Of a stretch of 64,000 nt of DNA, positions 6,001 through 9,000 are shown one piece after another. Numbering within the stretch: position 1 is the stretch's first letter; every line of letters begins with the position of its first letter. The stretch is from an uncultured bacterium (GTDB taxonomy: Bacteria; Patescibacteriota; Minisyncoccia; UBA6257; 2-01-FULL-56-20): positions 32,001 through 96,000 of the forward strand of contig CAWJQC010000008.1 in NCBI GenBank assembly GCA_963844965.1. The letters are read 5' to 3'. Position numbers: made by a program.

Positions 6001-9000
6001 AATCTTCATGTTCGTTTCGTTCGGCTCAATGGCAAAGATCTTGGCGGGCGACCTCTTGGCGGCAAAAACGGAAAATGTGCCGATGTGCGCACCGACGTCC
6101 AGGCCGACCTTCGCCTTCCTTATATACGGCAAAATATTGTCGTGGATGCCGTACAAATACGATTCGTTGATGACGTAAGCGTCCGATACCTCTTTACGCC
6201 TGTCGCGGACTTTGAACCTCGAACCGTCGCGCAGGACAACGACCATAGATTGCGGTAACCAATTCAAGCGATAAAAAACAAGCCGCGGCCAGTTCTTATA
6301 AATGACCGCCATCTTGAAAAATACGCGGATCTTATGCAATAACCGTTTCATTTCTTCCGAATATAATTTAATCCGACATCCGCGAAAATGTCCAGAAATC
6401 GATTTTCGTACGTGTGCTCGCGCATTGTCCGCCCATAGCCGGCATCGGCGATCTTCTCCCGCTCCCCGTCGTGCGACAAATAATATCTTATTTTCCCGAT
6501 CAGGTCCGGAATGTCATCGTAAAAGATCATTTCTTCGTTCTCCGCATAATATTTTCCGATATCCTCAGAACGGCCGGAGACGACGAACGCTTCGCATCCG
6601 GAGAGTTCAAACGGCCGCGCATGCGTGTGTGGAGTCGGGAAACGGACATAGGCCCTAAAATTGTCAACGAAGTGGAGATACGGGAACGATTCTGTCCGCG
6701 GATTTTTTAAGAAAAAGCCGCGCGATAACTGAAGGATACCCATAATTCTTTTCTGTCCGTGAGATTTAGACAAATTTTGCTTCGTCCGATTATTCTGGGC
6801 GCTTCGTCATGCGATACTCTACCACCTGGCCAACCGAAACCGAAGCACTGAACGTCAATGCCGGCGCGGTGGAGCGCTTCTACAACCCTCATGCGTCCAG
6901 ATTTCATCTGCCCCACAAAACTAACGTCAATGTCCTTACTCGCCGCGACAGGTTTATAAAAGGCGGTGTTGCACGCCCACTGCGACAAAACAACATTGTC
7001 GTATCCCGCTTTTTTATACCAATCAACCGCCCTGGAATATGTTGTCACAATTTTGGTAAAGTACGGCGGCCAATGCCTGGAATAATTGAAAAAGCGCCAA
7101 TAATCGTCCGCGAACCAAGCGACGCTTTTGGTTCTTTTTTTGATTTCCATAAGAACGCGCGGCTCAAGCTCGTCGGTGTACATAAAAGCGAAGAACAGAT
7201 CGGGGCGCTCGCGCTCCACGAGGCGAAGAAGTTTGTCGTTGAAACGTTTCTTGCCCATGCCGAGAATCCTGTCAAAAGGATAATCAACAACCTCCACGCC
7301 TTTCATGTTCTTCAGGGTGGAATAAAAATTGGCGTACTCAAAACTTCCGCGCCGCAGCGGGTCGTAGTTCTCAAATTCGGTGCCCGCATACAGCACTTTT
7401 ATCCCGCGCCGGCCGCCGGAAATTTTCGCGCCCCGTTCCACATCGGCTCCGACGGAAAACTTTTCGCGCGGATAATTCTTATTTTTTTTGAGGTATCGCA
7501 AAAGCTCGTCAAGTTCATCAAGAACCGACCCCACGCTCACCGCAGCAAGACAAGGCGATGGTTCTCCGACTTTCGCGCGAAGGCCGCACTGCCAATTATC
7601 GCAAAAACAAGGGGTTGTCTTATAAACCCATTTATTGATGTCGCCGTAACCGTACAGAGCGAACATGCCGAATTGGCCGCCGCCCGTGACGCAAAGCGAC
7701 GGCTTACGCAACGCTACCGCAATGTGCACTATGGAGGTATCGTTGGAAACAACGACGAACGACCCGCCAATAAGCGACAGGAGTTCGCGAAGATCGGTCT
7801 TGCCGGCCAAATTCAGACACAAGGGAAATGTTTTGCGGAATTCGTCGGCGAGAAGCTCTTCGCCCCTTGAACCGATTAGAACCACGTCAAGGCCGGCGGA
7901 CGACAAGCGGTCGGCTACCTTCTTAAAATTGCCGAGTGGCCACCGTTTGTAAGCGACACTCGCGTTCAGGTTCATAACGGCGTATTCACCGCTCTTAAGA
8001 CCGAATTTTCGGAGAACTTCCTCGCCTTCAGAAGCCTGGTGGCTGTAACCCATCGGCAGTTCTGTCGCGTAGTCGGATTCCTTGAAACCCGTCGCGCCTT
8101 CATATATGGCGACATAATGCGAAACGGCGCTCGGCAATTTTTCTTTCAAGACAGTCCCGCCATCAACGCTTGGGATTATTTTTGTGTAACGCGGATATAT
8201 CTTATTGAATACTAATTCCAGATTTTTGCGCTGCTGGACGTCAAAAGGATGCACGAATTCGGGGTCGATGCCTTCATAGCCGATGACTTCCCGCGCGCCA
8301 ACGCTTACCGAGATTATTTTTCCCATTATCTCCGACGCGCTGAAGTCGTGATCAATGACCTCTTCAAACCCCACGCTCCTTAGACGGCCGATAAACATCG
8401 CGCCGTAGAACGGATCAACGGCAAACCTGCGGTAATCAACGGTGGTAACCTCATCCGCGAATTTTCTGGAAAATATATTTTCAAGGCCGGTGCCCTGCTT
8501 TATCAGAAGATATATTTTTTTCTCCGGAAATCTCTTTTTGTAATGCTTCAGGACAGAGGTGAAAACCACGAGGATCGCCCAGGGCTTCCAGATTTATCAA
8601 AAGCAAACGATTTTCCCAATTATTGATATTCAGCCGCGGCCCGGATAAATATAAAAAAAACGACCGCAGCGGCGCCACAAGACGCATCTTCACGAAAAAT
8701 TTCATGTAGCTCGCGAGAAATCCCATCTATTTTACAAGAGCGGCTTTGAGGAGTGGCAACGTCACGGTCGCGGTTCCTTCAACGCCCACCACAATACCGG
8801 CGGCATGGTTGGCGACATCCGCCGCTTCGTCAAGCTTCGCCCCCGTCCCAAGCATCAACGTAAGGGTAGCAAGCACCGTGTCGCCGGCACCGGTCACGTC
8901 GTAAACGTGAAGCGCGCGCGTCGGAATATGGCGCGTCCTCCGGGTCAACTTGTCGCAAGTCGTAATTCCACGTTCTCCTCTCGTCAAAACCACCGACGAG

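What the first reader, a model, noticed from the sequence alone, without database searches (positions are those of the whole stretch)
6348..8726. Tri-domain glycosyltransferase: GT9 heptosyltransferase-like + DUF3880 + CgeB-like
A single roughly 790-aa reading frame (once two frameshifts are repaired) fuses an ADP-heptose:acceptor heptosyltransferase-type GT9 domain to a CgeB-like GT-B domain. That would make it a heptosyltransferase physically coupled to a second glycosyltransferase, next to the heptose-precursor genes. I do not recognise this architecture as described.
Basis: partly seen in the sequence, partly recalled or inferred. Interest (0 to 1): 0.55.

Follow-up and report, generated by a model that had tools for sequence, protein, structure and literature searches.

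The report
Fused heptosyltransferase plus CgeB-like glycosyltransferase gene
This is a real gene from an ultra-small (Patescibacteria) bacterium that joins a heptose-adding enzyme to a second sugar-adding enzyme within a large surface-sugar gene cluster; the breaks in its reading frame are probably sequencing errors, and the fusion is uncharacterised but not a new kind of enzyme.

Summary
It has three single-base insertions, not two, at about 8573, 6738 and 6680. Removing them gives a clean 791-aa protein.

The GT9-to-second-module junction lies inside the uninterrupted 620-aa ORF, so the fusion needs no repair. The protein has two GT-B modules:
- **N-terminal module:** GT9, ADP-heptose heptosyltransferase type. 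The catalytic Asp and donor-binding residues are conserved.
- **C-terminal module:** CgeB-like (PF13524), with a fold closest to retaining GT4 enzymes. "DUF3880" is only the sub-threshold N-lobe of this module.

Twenty-two intact full-length homologues (766-794 aa) exist in Patescibacteria MAGs. Of 28 related loci carrying both modules, 14 are fused, 10 have adjacent separate genes and 4 have them apart. The fusion is therefore real but evolutionarily labile.

The GT9 module tracks ADP-heptose genes. The C module tracks a GDP-heptose cassette.

At least six other genes in the window are also frameshifted, mostly at homopolymers. The repaired protein keeps 96/96 family-invariant residues. The frameshifts are therefore probably assembly errors.

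Most likely role: a bifunctional transferase building a heptose-containing surface glycan in a bacterium presumed to lack LPS. I rate it a new variant of a known kind, of moderate interest.

The parts
6348..8726 (-). Whole coding region of the two-module glycosyltransferase. It is 791 aa after removal of three extra bases and is interrupted by three +1 frameshifts.
   Evidence: The ATG at 8726 abuts the upstream gene's stop, and the TGA at 6348 overlaps the downstream ATG.
8574..8726 (-). Segment 1 (frame -3), residues 1-51. It holds the N-terminal basic/hydrophobic helix and the start of the GT9 N-lobe, ending in the LEALGD motif with the catalytic Asp51.
   Evidence: tblastn with intact homologues. 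D51 is invariant in 26/26 sequences. It aligns with WaaC D13.
8573..8573 (-). Frameshift 1: one extra base in GGCGATC[C]TCGTG.
   Evidence: The 79%-identical intact relative L104 reads GGCGA-CCTTCTG at this point. The frame changes from -3 to -1.
7438..8572 (-). Rest of the GT9 module, residues 52 to about 430. It contains K260-R-W-P, N-D329-T-S-I-V-H334 and the invariant C373-x2-D376-x3-C380-x11-C392 motif (window ~7609-7550).
   Evidence: PF01075 E 1.1e-22. PDB hits 3TOV 1.1e-19 and 1PSW 9e-16. Foldseek TM 0.71-0.79 to GT9 structures. Motif conservation.
6739..7420 (-). N-lobe and start of the C-lobe of the CgeB-like module (about residues 436-662, frame -1). It begins at IKVLYAG (7402), where standalone homologues start with Met.
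   Evidence: DUF3880 is only at E 0.065 here but is matched by 12/38 relatives.
6737..6738 (-). Frameshift 2: one extra base in TGGG[T]ATCC. Relatives encode Trp-Asp-Pro here.
   Evidence: Alignment with L072, L070, L077, L083, L012 and L013. Profile scores.
6682..6736 (-). Short frame -2 segment encoding (D)PSVIARLFLKKSADRIVP.
   Evidence: Matches PSVIARLFLKKSVNRIVP of the closest relatives.
6680..6680 (-). Frameshift 3: one extra base in CCCG[T]ATCTC. Relatives encode Pro-Asp-Phe here.
6348..6679 (-). C-terminal part of the CgeB-like C-lobe (frame -3), including the invariant R-P-F-E motif (~6620) and the stop codon.
   Evidence: PF13524 E 1.2e-25. Invariant R/F/E columns.
8727..9692 (-). 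PfkB-family kinase (HldE domain-I type, heptose-7-phosphate kinase-like), immediately upstream.
   Evidence: PF00294. An orthologue lies immediately upstream of the GT9 gene in 12/14 GT9-bearing loci and in 0/39 loci without GT9.
9691..10266 (+). Cytidylyltransferase-like protein (HldE domain-II type adenylyltransferase).
   Evidence: PF01467. Co-occurs with GT9 in 12/14 loci.
10229..11278 (-). NAD-dependent epimerase (HldD-like).
   Evidence: PF01370. Orthologues at 59-63% identity in GT9-bearing loci.
3834..4781 (-). GT2 glycosyltransferase, the conserved downstream partner of the CgeB-like module.
   Evidence: PF00535. Present in 12/14 GT9+ and 27/39 GT9- loci.
1..2454 (-). GDP-heptose-type cassette: NTP_transferase (1-645, cut by the window edge), SIS/GmhA-like (649-1254) and GHMP kinase/HddA-like (1384-2454).
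   Evidence: Orthologues follow the C-module in many loci.

Best explanation
The region encodes one real, conserved bifunctional glycosyltransferase of a Patescibacteria (CPR) bacterium. It belongs to a surface-glycan island of about 40 kb.

Module 1 (about residues 1-430) is a GT9 GT-B enzyme preceded by a basic/hydrophobic N-terminal helix. It most likely takes ADP-glycero-manno-heptose, made by the adjacent kinase, adenylyltransferase and epimerase, and transfers heptose with inversion.

Module 2 (about residues 436-791) is a complete CgeB-like GT-B enzyme with a retaining-GT4-like fold. It adds a second sugar from another nucleotide sugar.

The two modules most likely act on consecutive steps of the same membrane-linked oligosaccharide. 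That oligosaccharide would then be flipped by the Wzx encoded in the island and handed on by the Wzy_C-family protein to a cell-surface acceptor, not to LPS. That Patescibacteria lack LPS is prior knowledge and was not tested here.

The three 1-nt insertions that break the frame in this window are most likely errors of the deposited assembly, so the gene is probably intact in the organism.

Shown: the architecture, its conservation, the motifs, the folds and the gene neighbourhood. Inferred: the donors, the acceptor, the order of action and the membrane association.
For: Architecture and frames.

Fusion conservation:
- 22 intact homologues of 766-794 aa at 47-55% identity and 98-99% coverage, all carrying PF01075 and PF13524.
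- 14 fused loci, and 10 loci with GT9 then C-module as adjacent genes in the same order.

GT9 module:
- PF01075 at 81 bits.
- Profile hits to 3TOV, HepII and WaaC.
- AF2 model of orthologue P0002 with pLDDT 85.9, and Foldseek TM 0.71-0.79 to GT9 structures.
- Equivalents of WaaC D13, K192 and D261 conserved as D51, K260 and D329.

C module:
- AF2 pLDDT 94.5.

Context:
- The HldE-type kinase and adenylyltransferase are each present in 12/14 GT9-bearing loci. The kinase is absent from all 39 loci lacking GT9.
- The island also holds Wzx (15069-16544), Wzy_C (40347-42125) and many sugar-modifying enzymes.

Frameshifts as artefacts:
- At least eight further frameshifts in six other genes of the window, mostly at homopolymers such as G10 and A8.
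- The repaired protein has no in-frame stop.
- It keeps 96/96 invariant and 94/109 near-invariant residues, within the range of intact members.
Against: - No biochemical data exist for any member.
- NCBIfam equivalog models for LPS heptosyltransferases I, II and III are hit far below their cut-offs (68 against 134.6 bits, for example). Donor and acceptor specificity cannot be carried over from WaaC or WaaF.
- No priming phosphoglycosyltransferase was found among the window proteins scanned. A lipid-linked acceptor is therefore an assumption.
- Three frameshifts in 2.4 kb is more than the window average of about one per 5 kb. Raw reads were not available, so a genuine recent pseudogene is not excluded.
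- The source organism is inferred only from homologue names.
Confidence: 0.6

Rival explanations
1. The frameshifts are genuine. This copy is a recently inactivated pseudogene of the fused transferase, in a glycan island that is decaying or being remodelled.
For: - Three independent 1-nt insertions fall within one 2.4-kb gene, while its immediate neighbours (kinase, adenylyltransferase, epimerase, two FkbM methyltransferases, GT2) are intact.
- Frameshifted genes cluster in the glycan island.
- An rve transposase sits inside the island at about 27100-27920.
- The public record calls only the 620-aa ORF (P0001).
Against: - There are no in-frame stops after repair, and 96/96 invariant residues are retained.
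- Other frameshifts in the window sit at homopolymers (G10, A8, G5-6, CCC), typical of sequencing error.
- Two of the three sites are the same GTATC where relatives imply GATC, which points to a systematic error.
- About 7 of roughly 40 homologue-checked genes are frameshifted (rough count), which is implausibly many for a streamlined genome.
Confidence: 0.22
2. The enzyme glycosylates a protein directly. The GT9 module would work like the autotransporter heptosyltransferases (TibC/AAH). The CgeB-like module would work like B. subtilis CgeB, a putative O-glycosyltransferase of the crust protein CgeA. Together they would decorate an S-layer or pilus protein in the cytoplasm.
For: - GT9 includes protein heptosyltransferases, and TibC is a weak but detectable hit by sequence and fold (E 0.008; Foldseek).
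- An invariant Cys-rich insert (C-x2-D-x3-C-x~11-C) lies at the C-terminal end of the GT9 module (Cys373-392 of about 430 residues). TibC's iron-finger Cys339/342/358/370 lie similarly late in its 406 residues (PMC4358343).
- CgeB is proposed to glycosylate CgeA Thr112 (PMC13577073).
Against: - The module is much closer to 3TOV, HepII and WaaC than to TibC (1e-19 against 0.008).
- The model shows an N-terminal helix and a standard Rossmann N-lobe, not TibC's N-terminal beta-barrel (PMC4358343).
- Only three Cys are invariant, and their spacing differs from TibC.
- Wzx and Wzy_C in the island point to a lipid-linked route.
Confidence: 0.13
3. The frame changes are biological signals, either programmed +1 frameshifting or phase variation that switches the transferase on and off.
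For: - All three shifts go in the same direction (+1) and sum to zero modulo 3.
- Glycosyltransferases are classic phase-variable genes (prior knowledge).
- A G10 tract does occur in a neighbouring methyltransferase at about 14605.
Against: - The three sites have no long repeat tract: CC, GTATC and GTATC.
- All 22 full-length homologues and the 79%-identical relative L104 are in a single frame at these positions.
- Three successive programmed shifts are unprecedented.
Confidence: 0.02

Closest known systems
LPS inner-core heptosyltransferases WaaC (HepI) and WaaF (HepII), and the uncharacterised GT9 structure 3TOV (Veillonella parvula)
   Same: - Same Pfam family, PF01075.
- Same GT-B fold (TM 0.71-0.79).
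- Conserved N-terminal G-D catalytic Asp, K-x-W-P and D-T/S-G/S-x-x-H donor-binding motifs.
- Encoded next to ADP-heptose synthesis genes.
   Different: - Scores far below the NCBIfam equivalog cut-offs.
- Carries an extra N-terminal helix and an invariant Cx2Dx3Cx~11C insert that is absent from 3TOV.
- Is fused to, or adjacent to, a second transferase.
- The host lineage is not known to make Kdo-lipid A (prior knowledge), so the acceptor must differ.
Bacterial autotransporter heptosyltransferases (TibC, AAH)
   Same: - GT9-related ADP-heptose-using GT-B enzymes that act on a non-LPS acceptor.
- A Cys-rich insert late in the sequence (PMC4358343).
   Different: - Only weak similarity (E 0.008).
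- No N-terminal beta-barrel.
- Three invariant Cys plus Asp instead of four Cys, with different spacing.
- No evidence of dodecamer formation.
B. subtilis CgeB / YkvP family (PF13524, with DUF3880 N-lobe)
   Same: The C-terminal module matches PF13524 at 90.6 bits. Relatives match DUF3880. It is a compact GT-B of about 350 aa, as modelled for CgeB (PMC13577073).
   Different: - Here it is fused to GT9.
- It sits in a Wzx/Wzy_C glycan island of a non-sporulating lineage.
- It associates with heptose-nucleotide genes rather than spore-crust genes.
Retaining GT4 enzymes acting at the membrane (PimA, PimB', PglA, BshA, MshA)
   Different: Only 9-14% sequence identity. PF00534 is detected in only 3/38 relatives. 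Membership of CAZy GT4 was not established.

Membership tests
GT9 (PF01075, heptosyltransferase family) | Sequence match to the family model above the curated threshold | tested here: met
   PF01075 at 81 bits against a cut-off of 22, E 1.1e-22. No competing family scores on the N-terminal half.
GT9 (PF01075, heptosyltransferase family) | GT-B fold closest to solved GT9 enzymes | tested here: met
   Tested on the AF2 model of the intact orthologue P0002 (55% identical), not on the window protein itself: pLDDT 85.9. The top ten Foldseek hits are 3TOV, 1PSW and WaaC chains (TMt 0.71-0.79), apart from one NDH-PSI supercomplex subunit (9grx).
GT9 (PF01075, heptosyltransferase family) | Catalytic Asp (WaaC D13) and ADP-heptose-binding Lys and Asp (WaaC K192, D261) conserved. 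The residue roles come from the published WaaC literature (prior knowledge). | tested here: met
   D51 is 26/26, K260 is K/R in 25/26, D329 is D/E in 26/26 and H334 is 25/26. Alignment to WaaC is and conservation.
GT9 (PF01075, heptosyltransferase family) | Transfer of heptose from ADP-heptose | not testable with these tools
   Supported only by context: an HldE-type kinase and adenylyltransferase in 12/14 GT9-bearing loci, and the kinase in 0/39 loci without GT9.
LPS heptosyltransferase I/II/III equivalogs (TIGR02193/02195/02201) | Score above the NCBIfam equivalog cut-off | tested here: not met
   68.3 against 134.6, 66 against 185.3 and 43.8 against 170.2 bits. It is not an orthologue of WaaC, WaaF or WaaQ.
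BAHT (TibC/AAH protein heptosyltransferases) | N-terminal beta-barrel, beta-hairpin thumb and four-Cys iron finger (PMC4358343) | tested here: not met
   The model starts with a helix (2-27) and then a Rossmann lobe. Only three Cys are invariant, plus one Asp, with spacing C-x6-C-x11-C. Sequence E is 0.008.
CgeB-like glycosyltransferase (PF13524 Glyco_trans_1_2) | Sequence match above the curated threshold | tested here: met
   90.6 bits against a cut-off of 25. 38/38 C-module relatives match.
DUF3880 (PF12996) | Sequence match above the curated threshold | tested here: not met
   13.9 bits against a cut-off of 25.2, E 0.065. 12/38 relatives match at E<=0.01, best 3.5e-7. The region is the N-lobe of the GT-B module.
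Retaining GT4-type GT-B | Fold similarity to GT4 enzymes, and family sequence signature (PF00534 / EX7E) | tested here: inconclusive
Pseudogene | Disrupted frame plus signs of relaxed constraint (stops, loss of invariant residues) | tested here: inconclusive
   Three frameshifts are present. There are no in-frame stops and 96/96 invariant residues are kept. Six other genes in the window are also frameshifted, mostly at homopolymers.

The most novel reading that the evidence does not exclude
The fusion is a dual heptosyltransferase that draws on two different activated heptoses. [quoted passage not shown] Together they would build a hetero-heptose motif on the surface glycan, or S-layer or pilus glycoprotein, of a bacterium presumed to lack LPS. 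This would give the widespread, uncharacterised CgeB/DUF3880 family its first defined donor class.

The evidence is by association only:
- In loci without GT9, the C module is followed by GT2, an epimerase, an HddA-like GHMP kinase, GmhA-like SIS and an HddC-like NTP-transferase. The counts are 19/39 for GHMP, 23/39 for SIS and 12/39 for NTP-transferase.
- A more distant clade still has SIS right after the C module.
- The window carries both pathways.

The co-occurring GT2 could equally be the user of GDP-heptose.
Probability: 0.2. Interest if true: 0.6.

Novelty: new variant of a known kind. Interest (0 to 1): 0.35.

Why it matters
Heptose is best known as a building block of Gram-negative LPS. 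Patescibacteria are ultra-small, mostly episymbiotic bacteria that are not known to make LPS (prior knowledge), and their surface chemistry is almost unknown.

A conserved GT9 enzyme, tied by fusion or adjacency to a CgeB-like transferase and embedded beside both ADP- and GDP-heptose pathways, points to heptose-rich surface glycans in this lineage. It also gives a concrete, expressible candidate for defining them: intact orthologues such as OGZ53398.1.

The fusion/fission pattern is a "Rosetta stone" link. It assigns a functional partner to the poorly understood CgeB/DUF3880 family.

On the practical side, the case shows that this assembly carries many indel errors. Apparent pseudogenes in it should not be taken at face value.

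Tried and rejected
Rejected. It scores 21-30 bits lower than three-shift repairs against the profile of intact homologues. It also mis-aligns about 20 residues.
- **First placement of frameshift 2 in the AAAA run at 6749-6752.** Rejected. Closer relatives showed that frame -1 continues through RKELW, so the site moved to ~6738.
- **Exact look-up of the 620-aa ORF's contig.** Nothing is on record, so I could not obtain the source record or its reads.
- **GATC-methylation explanation for all frameshifts.** GATC is only mildly depleted (182 sites, O/E 0.72), and most other frameshifts are plain homopolymer indels. GATC context remains a lead for two or three sites only.
- **afdb50 fold search**, to see whether the full architecture is represented in AlphaFold DB. 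The library was unavailable.
- **Literature searches** for heptosyltransferase with Patescibacteria, DUF3880, PF13524, and heptose with CPR. No paper describes this architecture. The only relevant statement is that ADP-heptose synthesis among CPR is restricted to Paceibacteria.
- **Rfam and tRNA scans of the window.** They found only one tRNA-Leu and nothing bearing on the gene.
- **Phase variation or programmed frameshifting.** Rejected for lack of repeat tracts and because all relatives are in a single frame.
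Full report
**1. What is in the sequence**

On the minus strand an ATG at 8726 follows directly on the stop codon of the upstream kinase gene. A TGA at 6348 overlaps the ATG of the next gene. The span is 2379 nt.

Three ORFs cover it: 8726-8481 (81 aa), 8569-6707 (620 aa) and 6773-6348 (141 aa). Six-frame translation and tblastn with intact homologues show that the coding frame runs as follows:

| Frame | Window coordinates | Content |
|---|---|---|
| -3 | 8726-8574 | residues 1-51 |
| -1 | 8572-~6739 | residues 52 to about 662 |
| -2 | ~6736-6682 | about 19 codons |
| -3 | ~6679-6348 | C-terminal part and stop |

Each is one extra base:

- **Site 1 (8573), GGCGATC[C]TCGTG.** A 79%-identical intact relative (L104) reads GGCGA-CCTTCTG at this point.
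- **Site 2 (~6738), TGGG[T]ATCC.** The closest C-module relatives read ...LNLTDRK(K/R)LWDPSVIARLFLKKSVNRIVPDFHF....
- **Site 3 (~6680), CCCG[T]ATCTC.** The same relatives apply.

Against an HMM built only from 22 intact homologues, the best three-shift repair scores 1208.3 bits, an earlier three-shift version 1200.1 and the two-shift repair 1178.7. The repaired protein is 791 aa with no internal stop.

The junction between the two enzyme modules (about residues 410-441, window ~7500-7400) lies inside the uninterrupted 620-aa ORF. The fusion is therefore not a product of frame reconstruction.

**2. Domain content**

- Pfam gives PF01075 (GT9) at E 1.1e-22 and PF13524 (Glyco_trans_1_2, the CgeB/YkvP-type domain) at E 1.2e-25.
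- DUF3880 reaches only E 0.065, below its cut-off.
- NCBIfam hits only LPS heptosyltransferase I, II and III models, all far below their equivalog cut-offs.
- A profile of the family hits solved GT9 structures: 3TOV 1.1e-19, HepII 1PSW 9e-16, WaaC 1.4e-12. TibC is hit only at 0.008. Nothing in the PDB is hit by sequence for the C-terminal half.

An AlphaFold2 model of the closest intact orthologue (P0002, 55% identical) has pLDDT 85.9 and pTM 0.78. It shows an N-terminal helix, a GT-B module, a low-confidence linker at about 425-445, and a second complete GT-B module.

- Foldseek places module 1 next to 3TOV, HepII and WaaC, with TM 0.71-0.79.
- DUF3880 corresponds to the N-lobe of module 2. 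It is matched by 12 of 38 relatives.

The protein is therefore bi-modular, not tri-domain.

**3. Catalytic and signature residues**

In the alignment to WaaC, the family's G50-D51 pairs with WaaC G-D13. K260-R-W-P pairs with K192-H-W-P, and D329-T-S-x-x-H334 pairs with D261-T-G-L-S-H.

| Residue | Conservation across the window protein and 25 divergent standalone GT9 relatives |
|---|---|
| D51 | 26/26 |
| K260 | K/R in 25/26 |
| D329 | D/E in 26/26 |
| H334 | 25/26 |

The same set shows an invariant C373-x2-D376-x3-C380-x~11-C392 motif (26/26 each). This motif is absent from 3TOV.

The motif lies at the C-terminal end of the GT9 module, as TibC's iron-finger cysteines (339, 342, 358, 370) lie late in that 406-residue protein (PMC4358343). 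It has three Cys plus an Asp, and a different spacing. A structural metal site is plausible but untested.

**4. Is the fusion real and conserved?**

The word-indexed search found 22 full-length homologues of 766-794 aa, at 47-55% identity and 98-99% coverage. All carry both Pfam domains. Where named, the sources are Paceibacterota, Liptonbacteria, Parcubacteria and Patescibacteria MAGs.

One cluster member is OGZ53398.1 from Candidatus Ryanbacteria, which is UniRef A0A1G2GUA7, [quoted passage not shown].

Scans of GTDB genomes and JGI metagenomes gave 118 related loci. Of the 28 that hold both modules:

| State | Loci | Notes |
|---|---|---|
| Fused in one ORF | 14 | |
| GT9 then C module as adjacent separate genes | 10 | stop codon, then Met-Lys-Ile/Val-...-Tyr-x-Gly start; two are split by a single in-frame stop |
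| Modules apart or broken | 4 | |

About 90 loci have the C module alone.

In the exhaustive search against 50%-identity representatives, the fused form collapses to one cluster (P0008). There are about 20 clusters of standalone GT9 of this subtype (414-447 aa). Most of the remaining 150 listed hits are standalone C modules of about 350 aa. The C module also occurs in giant multi-transferase proteins of 1000-1770 aa.

Rough NJ trees interleave fused and split forms. They also place the window's N half with fused forms but its C half with split and standalone forms. This suggests repeated fusion, fission or module exchange. The trees carry no support values.

**5. Neighbourhood**

The PfkB kinase (HldE-I type) ends one base before the gene. 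A cytidylyltransferase-like adenylyltransferase and an HldD-like epimerase follow upstream.

Downstream on the same strand lie two FkbM methyltransferases, a GT2, a GDSL protein, a GHMP kinase (HddA-like), a SIS protein (GmhA-like) and an NTP-transferase.

Co-occurrence in loci of at least 10 kb:

| Gene | GT9-bearing loci (n=14) | Loci with C module only (n=39) |
|---|---|---|
| HldE-type kinase | 12 | 0 |
| Adenylyltransferase | 12 | 2 (weak) |
| GT2 | 12 | 27 |
| GHMP kinase | 9 | 19 |
| SIS | 10 | 23 |
| NTP-transferase | 7 | 12 |

The GT9 module tracks the ADP-heptose genes. The C module with GT2 tracks a GDP-heptose-type cassette. A more distant clade (L045) has RNase Y, Wzy_C, TPR, an epimerase, the C module, NUDIX, SIS, RmlC and a second C-like gene.

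In the window the glycan island runs from position 1 to about 42 kb. It ends at Wzy_C (40347-42125) next to RNase Y (42274-43635). It also contains:

- Wzx (15069-16544);
- a second CgeB-like GT (17518-18549);
- GT2, GT4 and GT10-like enzymes;
- carbamoyl-, O- and C-methyltransferases;
- GDP-mannose dehydratase;
- a split transketolase;
- an NTP-transferase-HAD phosphatase fusion (24905-26077), which could supply GmhB activity.

[quoted passage not shown] The two parallel heptose pathways, and the use of D,D-heptose in a Gram-positive S-layer glycan, are summarised in PMC5387315.

**6. Frameshifts: biology or artefact?**

I searched all long ORFs of the related loci against the window. This exposed further frame changes in six other genes:

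| Position | Gene | Context |
|---|---|---|
| ~14605 | TylF-like methyltransferase | G10 run |
| ~19977 | CmcI-type methyltransferase | CCC |
| ~34743, ~34481, ~34212 | FkbM-like gene, three shifts | G runs |
| ~37806 | epimerase | |
| ~44304 | | A8 run |
| ~46840 | | |

By a rough count, about 7 of roughly 40 homologue-checked genes are affected.

The repaired transferase keeps 96/96 residues that are invariant in the 22 intact homologues. It keeps 94/109 near-invariant ones, which is inside the range of the intact members themselves (84-97%).

Two of its three sites are the same pentamer, GTATC, where relatives encode Asp, implying an original GATC. The third site is a C doubled right after GATC. 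GATC as a whole is only mildly depleted (182 sites, O/E 0.72), so I treat this as a hint of systematic error, not proof.

Together this favours indel errors of the deposited assembly, at about 75%, over a genuine pseudogene, at about 22%. Reads were not available and the contig look-up failed. Programmed frameshifting or phase variation is very unlikely, because there are no repeat tracts and all relatives are in frame.

**7. Most likely function**

*Shown:* two complete GT-B transferase modules with conserved catalytic-site residues. They are joined or adjacent in a conserved order. They lie inside a Wzx/Wzy_C glycan island that encodes both nucleotide-heptose routes.

*Inferred:*
- Module 1 transfers heptose from ADP-heptose with inversion, as in GT9.
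- Module 2, with its GT4-like fold, transfers a second sugar with retention.
- Both act on the same membrane-associated intermediate. The basic/hydrophobic N-terminal helix would hold the enzyme at the membrane.
- The product is exported to a non-LPS surface acceptor.

A direct protein-glycosylating role, combining TibC-like and CgeB-like activities, is a minority alternative.

The most novel reading that remains open is that module 2 is itself a GDP-heptose-dependent heptosyltransferase. That would make the fusion a dual heptosyltransferase.

**8. Novelty and score**

Bifunctional two-GT-B transferases are a well-known kind. GT9 and CgeB-like domains are both catalogued, and dozens of intact copies of this exact architecture are already in public databases under generic names. 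I found no publication describing the GT9-CgeB fusion, its split-gene counterpart, or its Cx2Dx3Cx11C signature.

I rate it a new variant of a known kind, with interest 0.35. It is useful for CPR surface glycobiology and for assigning a partner to the CgeB family, but it would not surprise a specialist.

Noticed in passing
window ~14605, ~19977, ~34212, ~34481, ~34743, ~37806, ~44304, ~46840: At least eight further frameshifts in six other genes: a TylF-like methyltransferase, a CmcI-type methyltransferase, an FkbM-like methyltransferase with three shifts, an epimerase, a gene at 44.0-44.5 kb and one at 46.5-46.95 kb. Most sit in homopolymers. This suggests an indel-prone (possibly long-read) assembly.
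   Followed up: partly
window ~14590-14620 (minus strand): A G10 tract sits inside the TylF-like O-methyltransferase gene (15019-14197), exactly at its frameshift. It could be a sequencing error or a genuine phase-variable tract in a glycan-modifying gene.
   Followed up: no
window 54717-58427 (-): A 1237-aa class I aminoacyl-tRNA synthetase (IleRS-like: tRNA-synt_1, Anticodon_1, DUF5915) carries a histidine-phosphatase-superfamily domain (PF00300, E 6.5e-28) at residues 554-719, between the two halves of the catalytic domain. This is an unusual architecture.
   Followed up: no
window 7550-7609 (-), residues 373-392; also 25 standalone relatives: The motif C-x2-D-x3-C-x~11-C is invariant in 26/26 sequences at the C-terminal end of this GT9 subfamily and absent from 3TOV. 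It may be a Cys3-Asp metal site, reminiscent of but distinct from the TibC iron finger.
   Followed up: partly
window 24905-26077 (-): A single ORF fuses an NTP_transferase domain to a HAD-type phosphatase domain. This looks like a HddC-GmhB-type fusion, which would complete the heptose pathways in the island.
   Followed up: no
window 20534-22220 (-): Split transketolase (N-terminal and pyrimidine/C-terminal subunits as two genes) embedded in the glycan island. It might supply sedoheptulose-7-phosphate for heptose synthesis.
   Followed up: no
window ~27100-27920 (-) and 53296-54420 (-): Two rve-type (IS481-like) transposase genes, one of them inside the glycan island.
   Followed up: no
window 40347-43635 (-); L045 3474-6424: The glycan island ends with a Wzy_C-family gene next to RNase Y, both in the window and in a distant Liptonbacteria locus. 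The island's chromosomal position appears to be conserved.
   Followed up: partly
whole window: TCGA is strongly under-represented (104 observed, 272 expected, O/E 0.38), which suggests restriction avoidance. GATC is at O/E 0.72.
   Followed up: no
L006 3323-3333; L070 4245-4285: In two related loci the GT9 and CgeB-like parts are in the same frame and separated by a single in-frame stop codon. This looks like a minimal fission (or read-through) state between the fused and split forms.
   Followed up: no
window 58430-59480: About 1 kb with no convincing ORF on either strand between the IleRS-like gene and the next gene. There was no Rfam hit.
   Followed up: no
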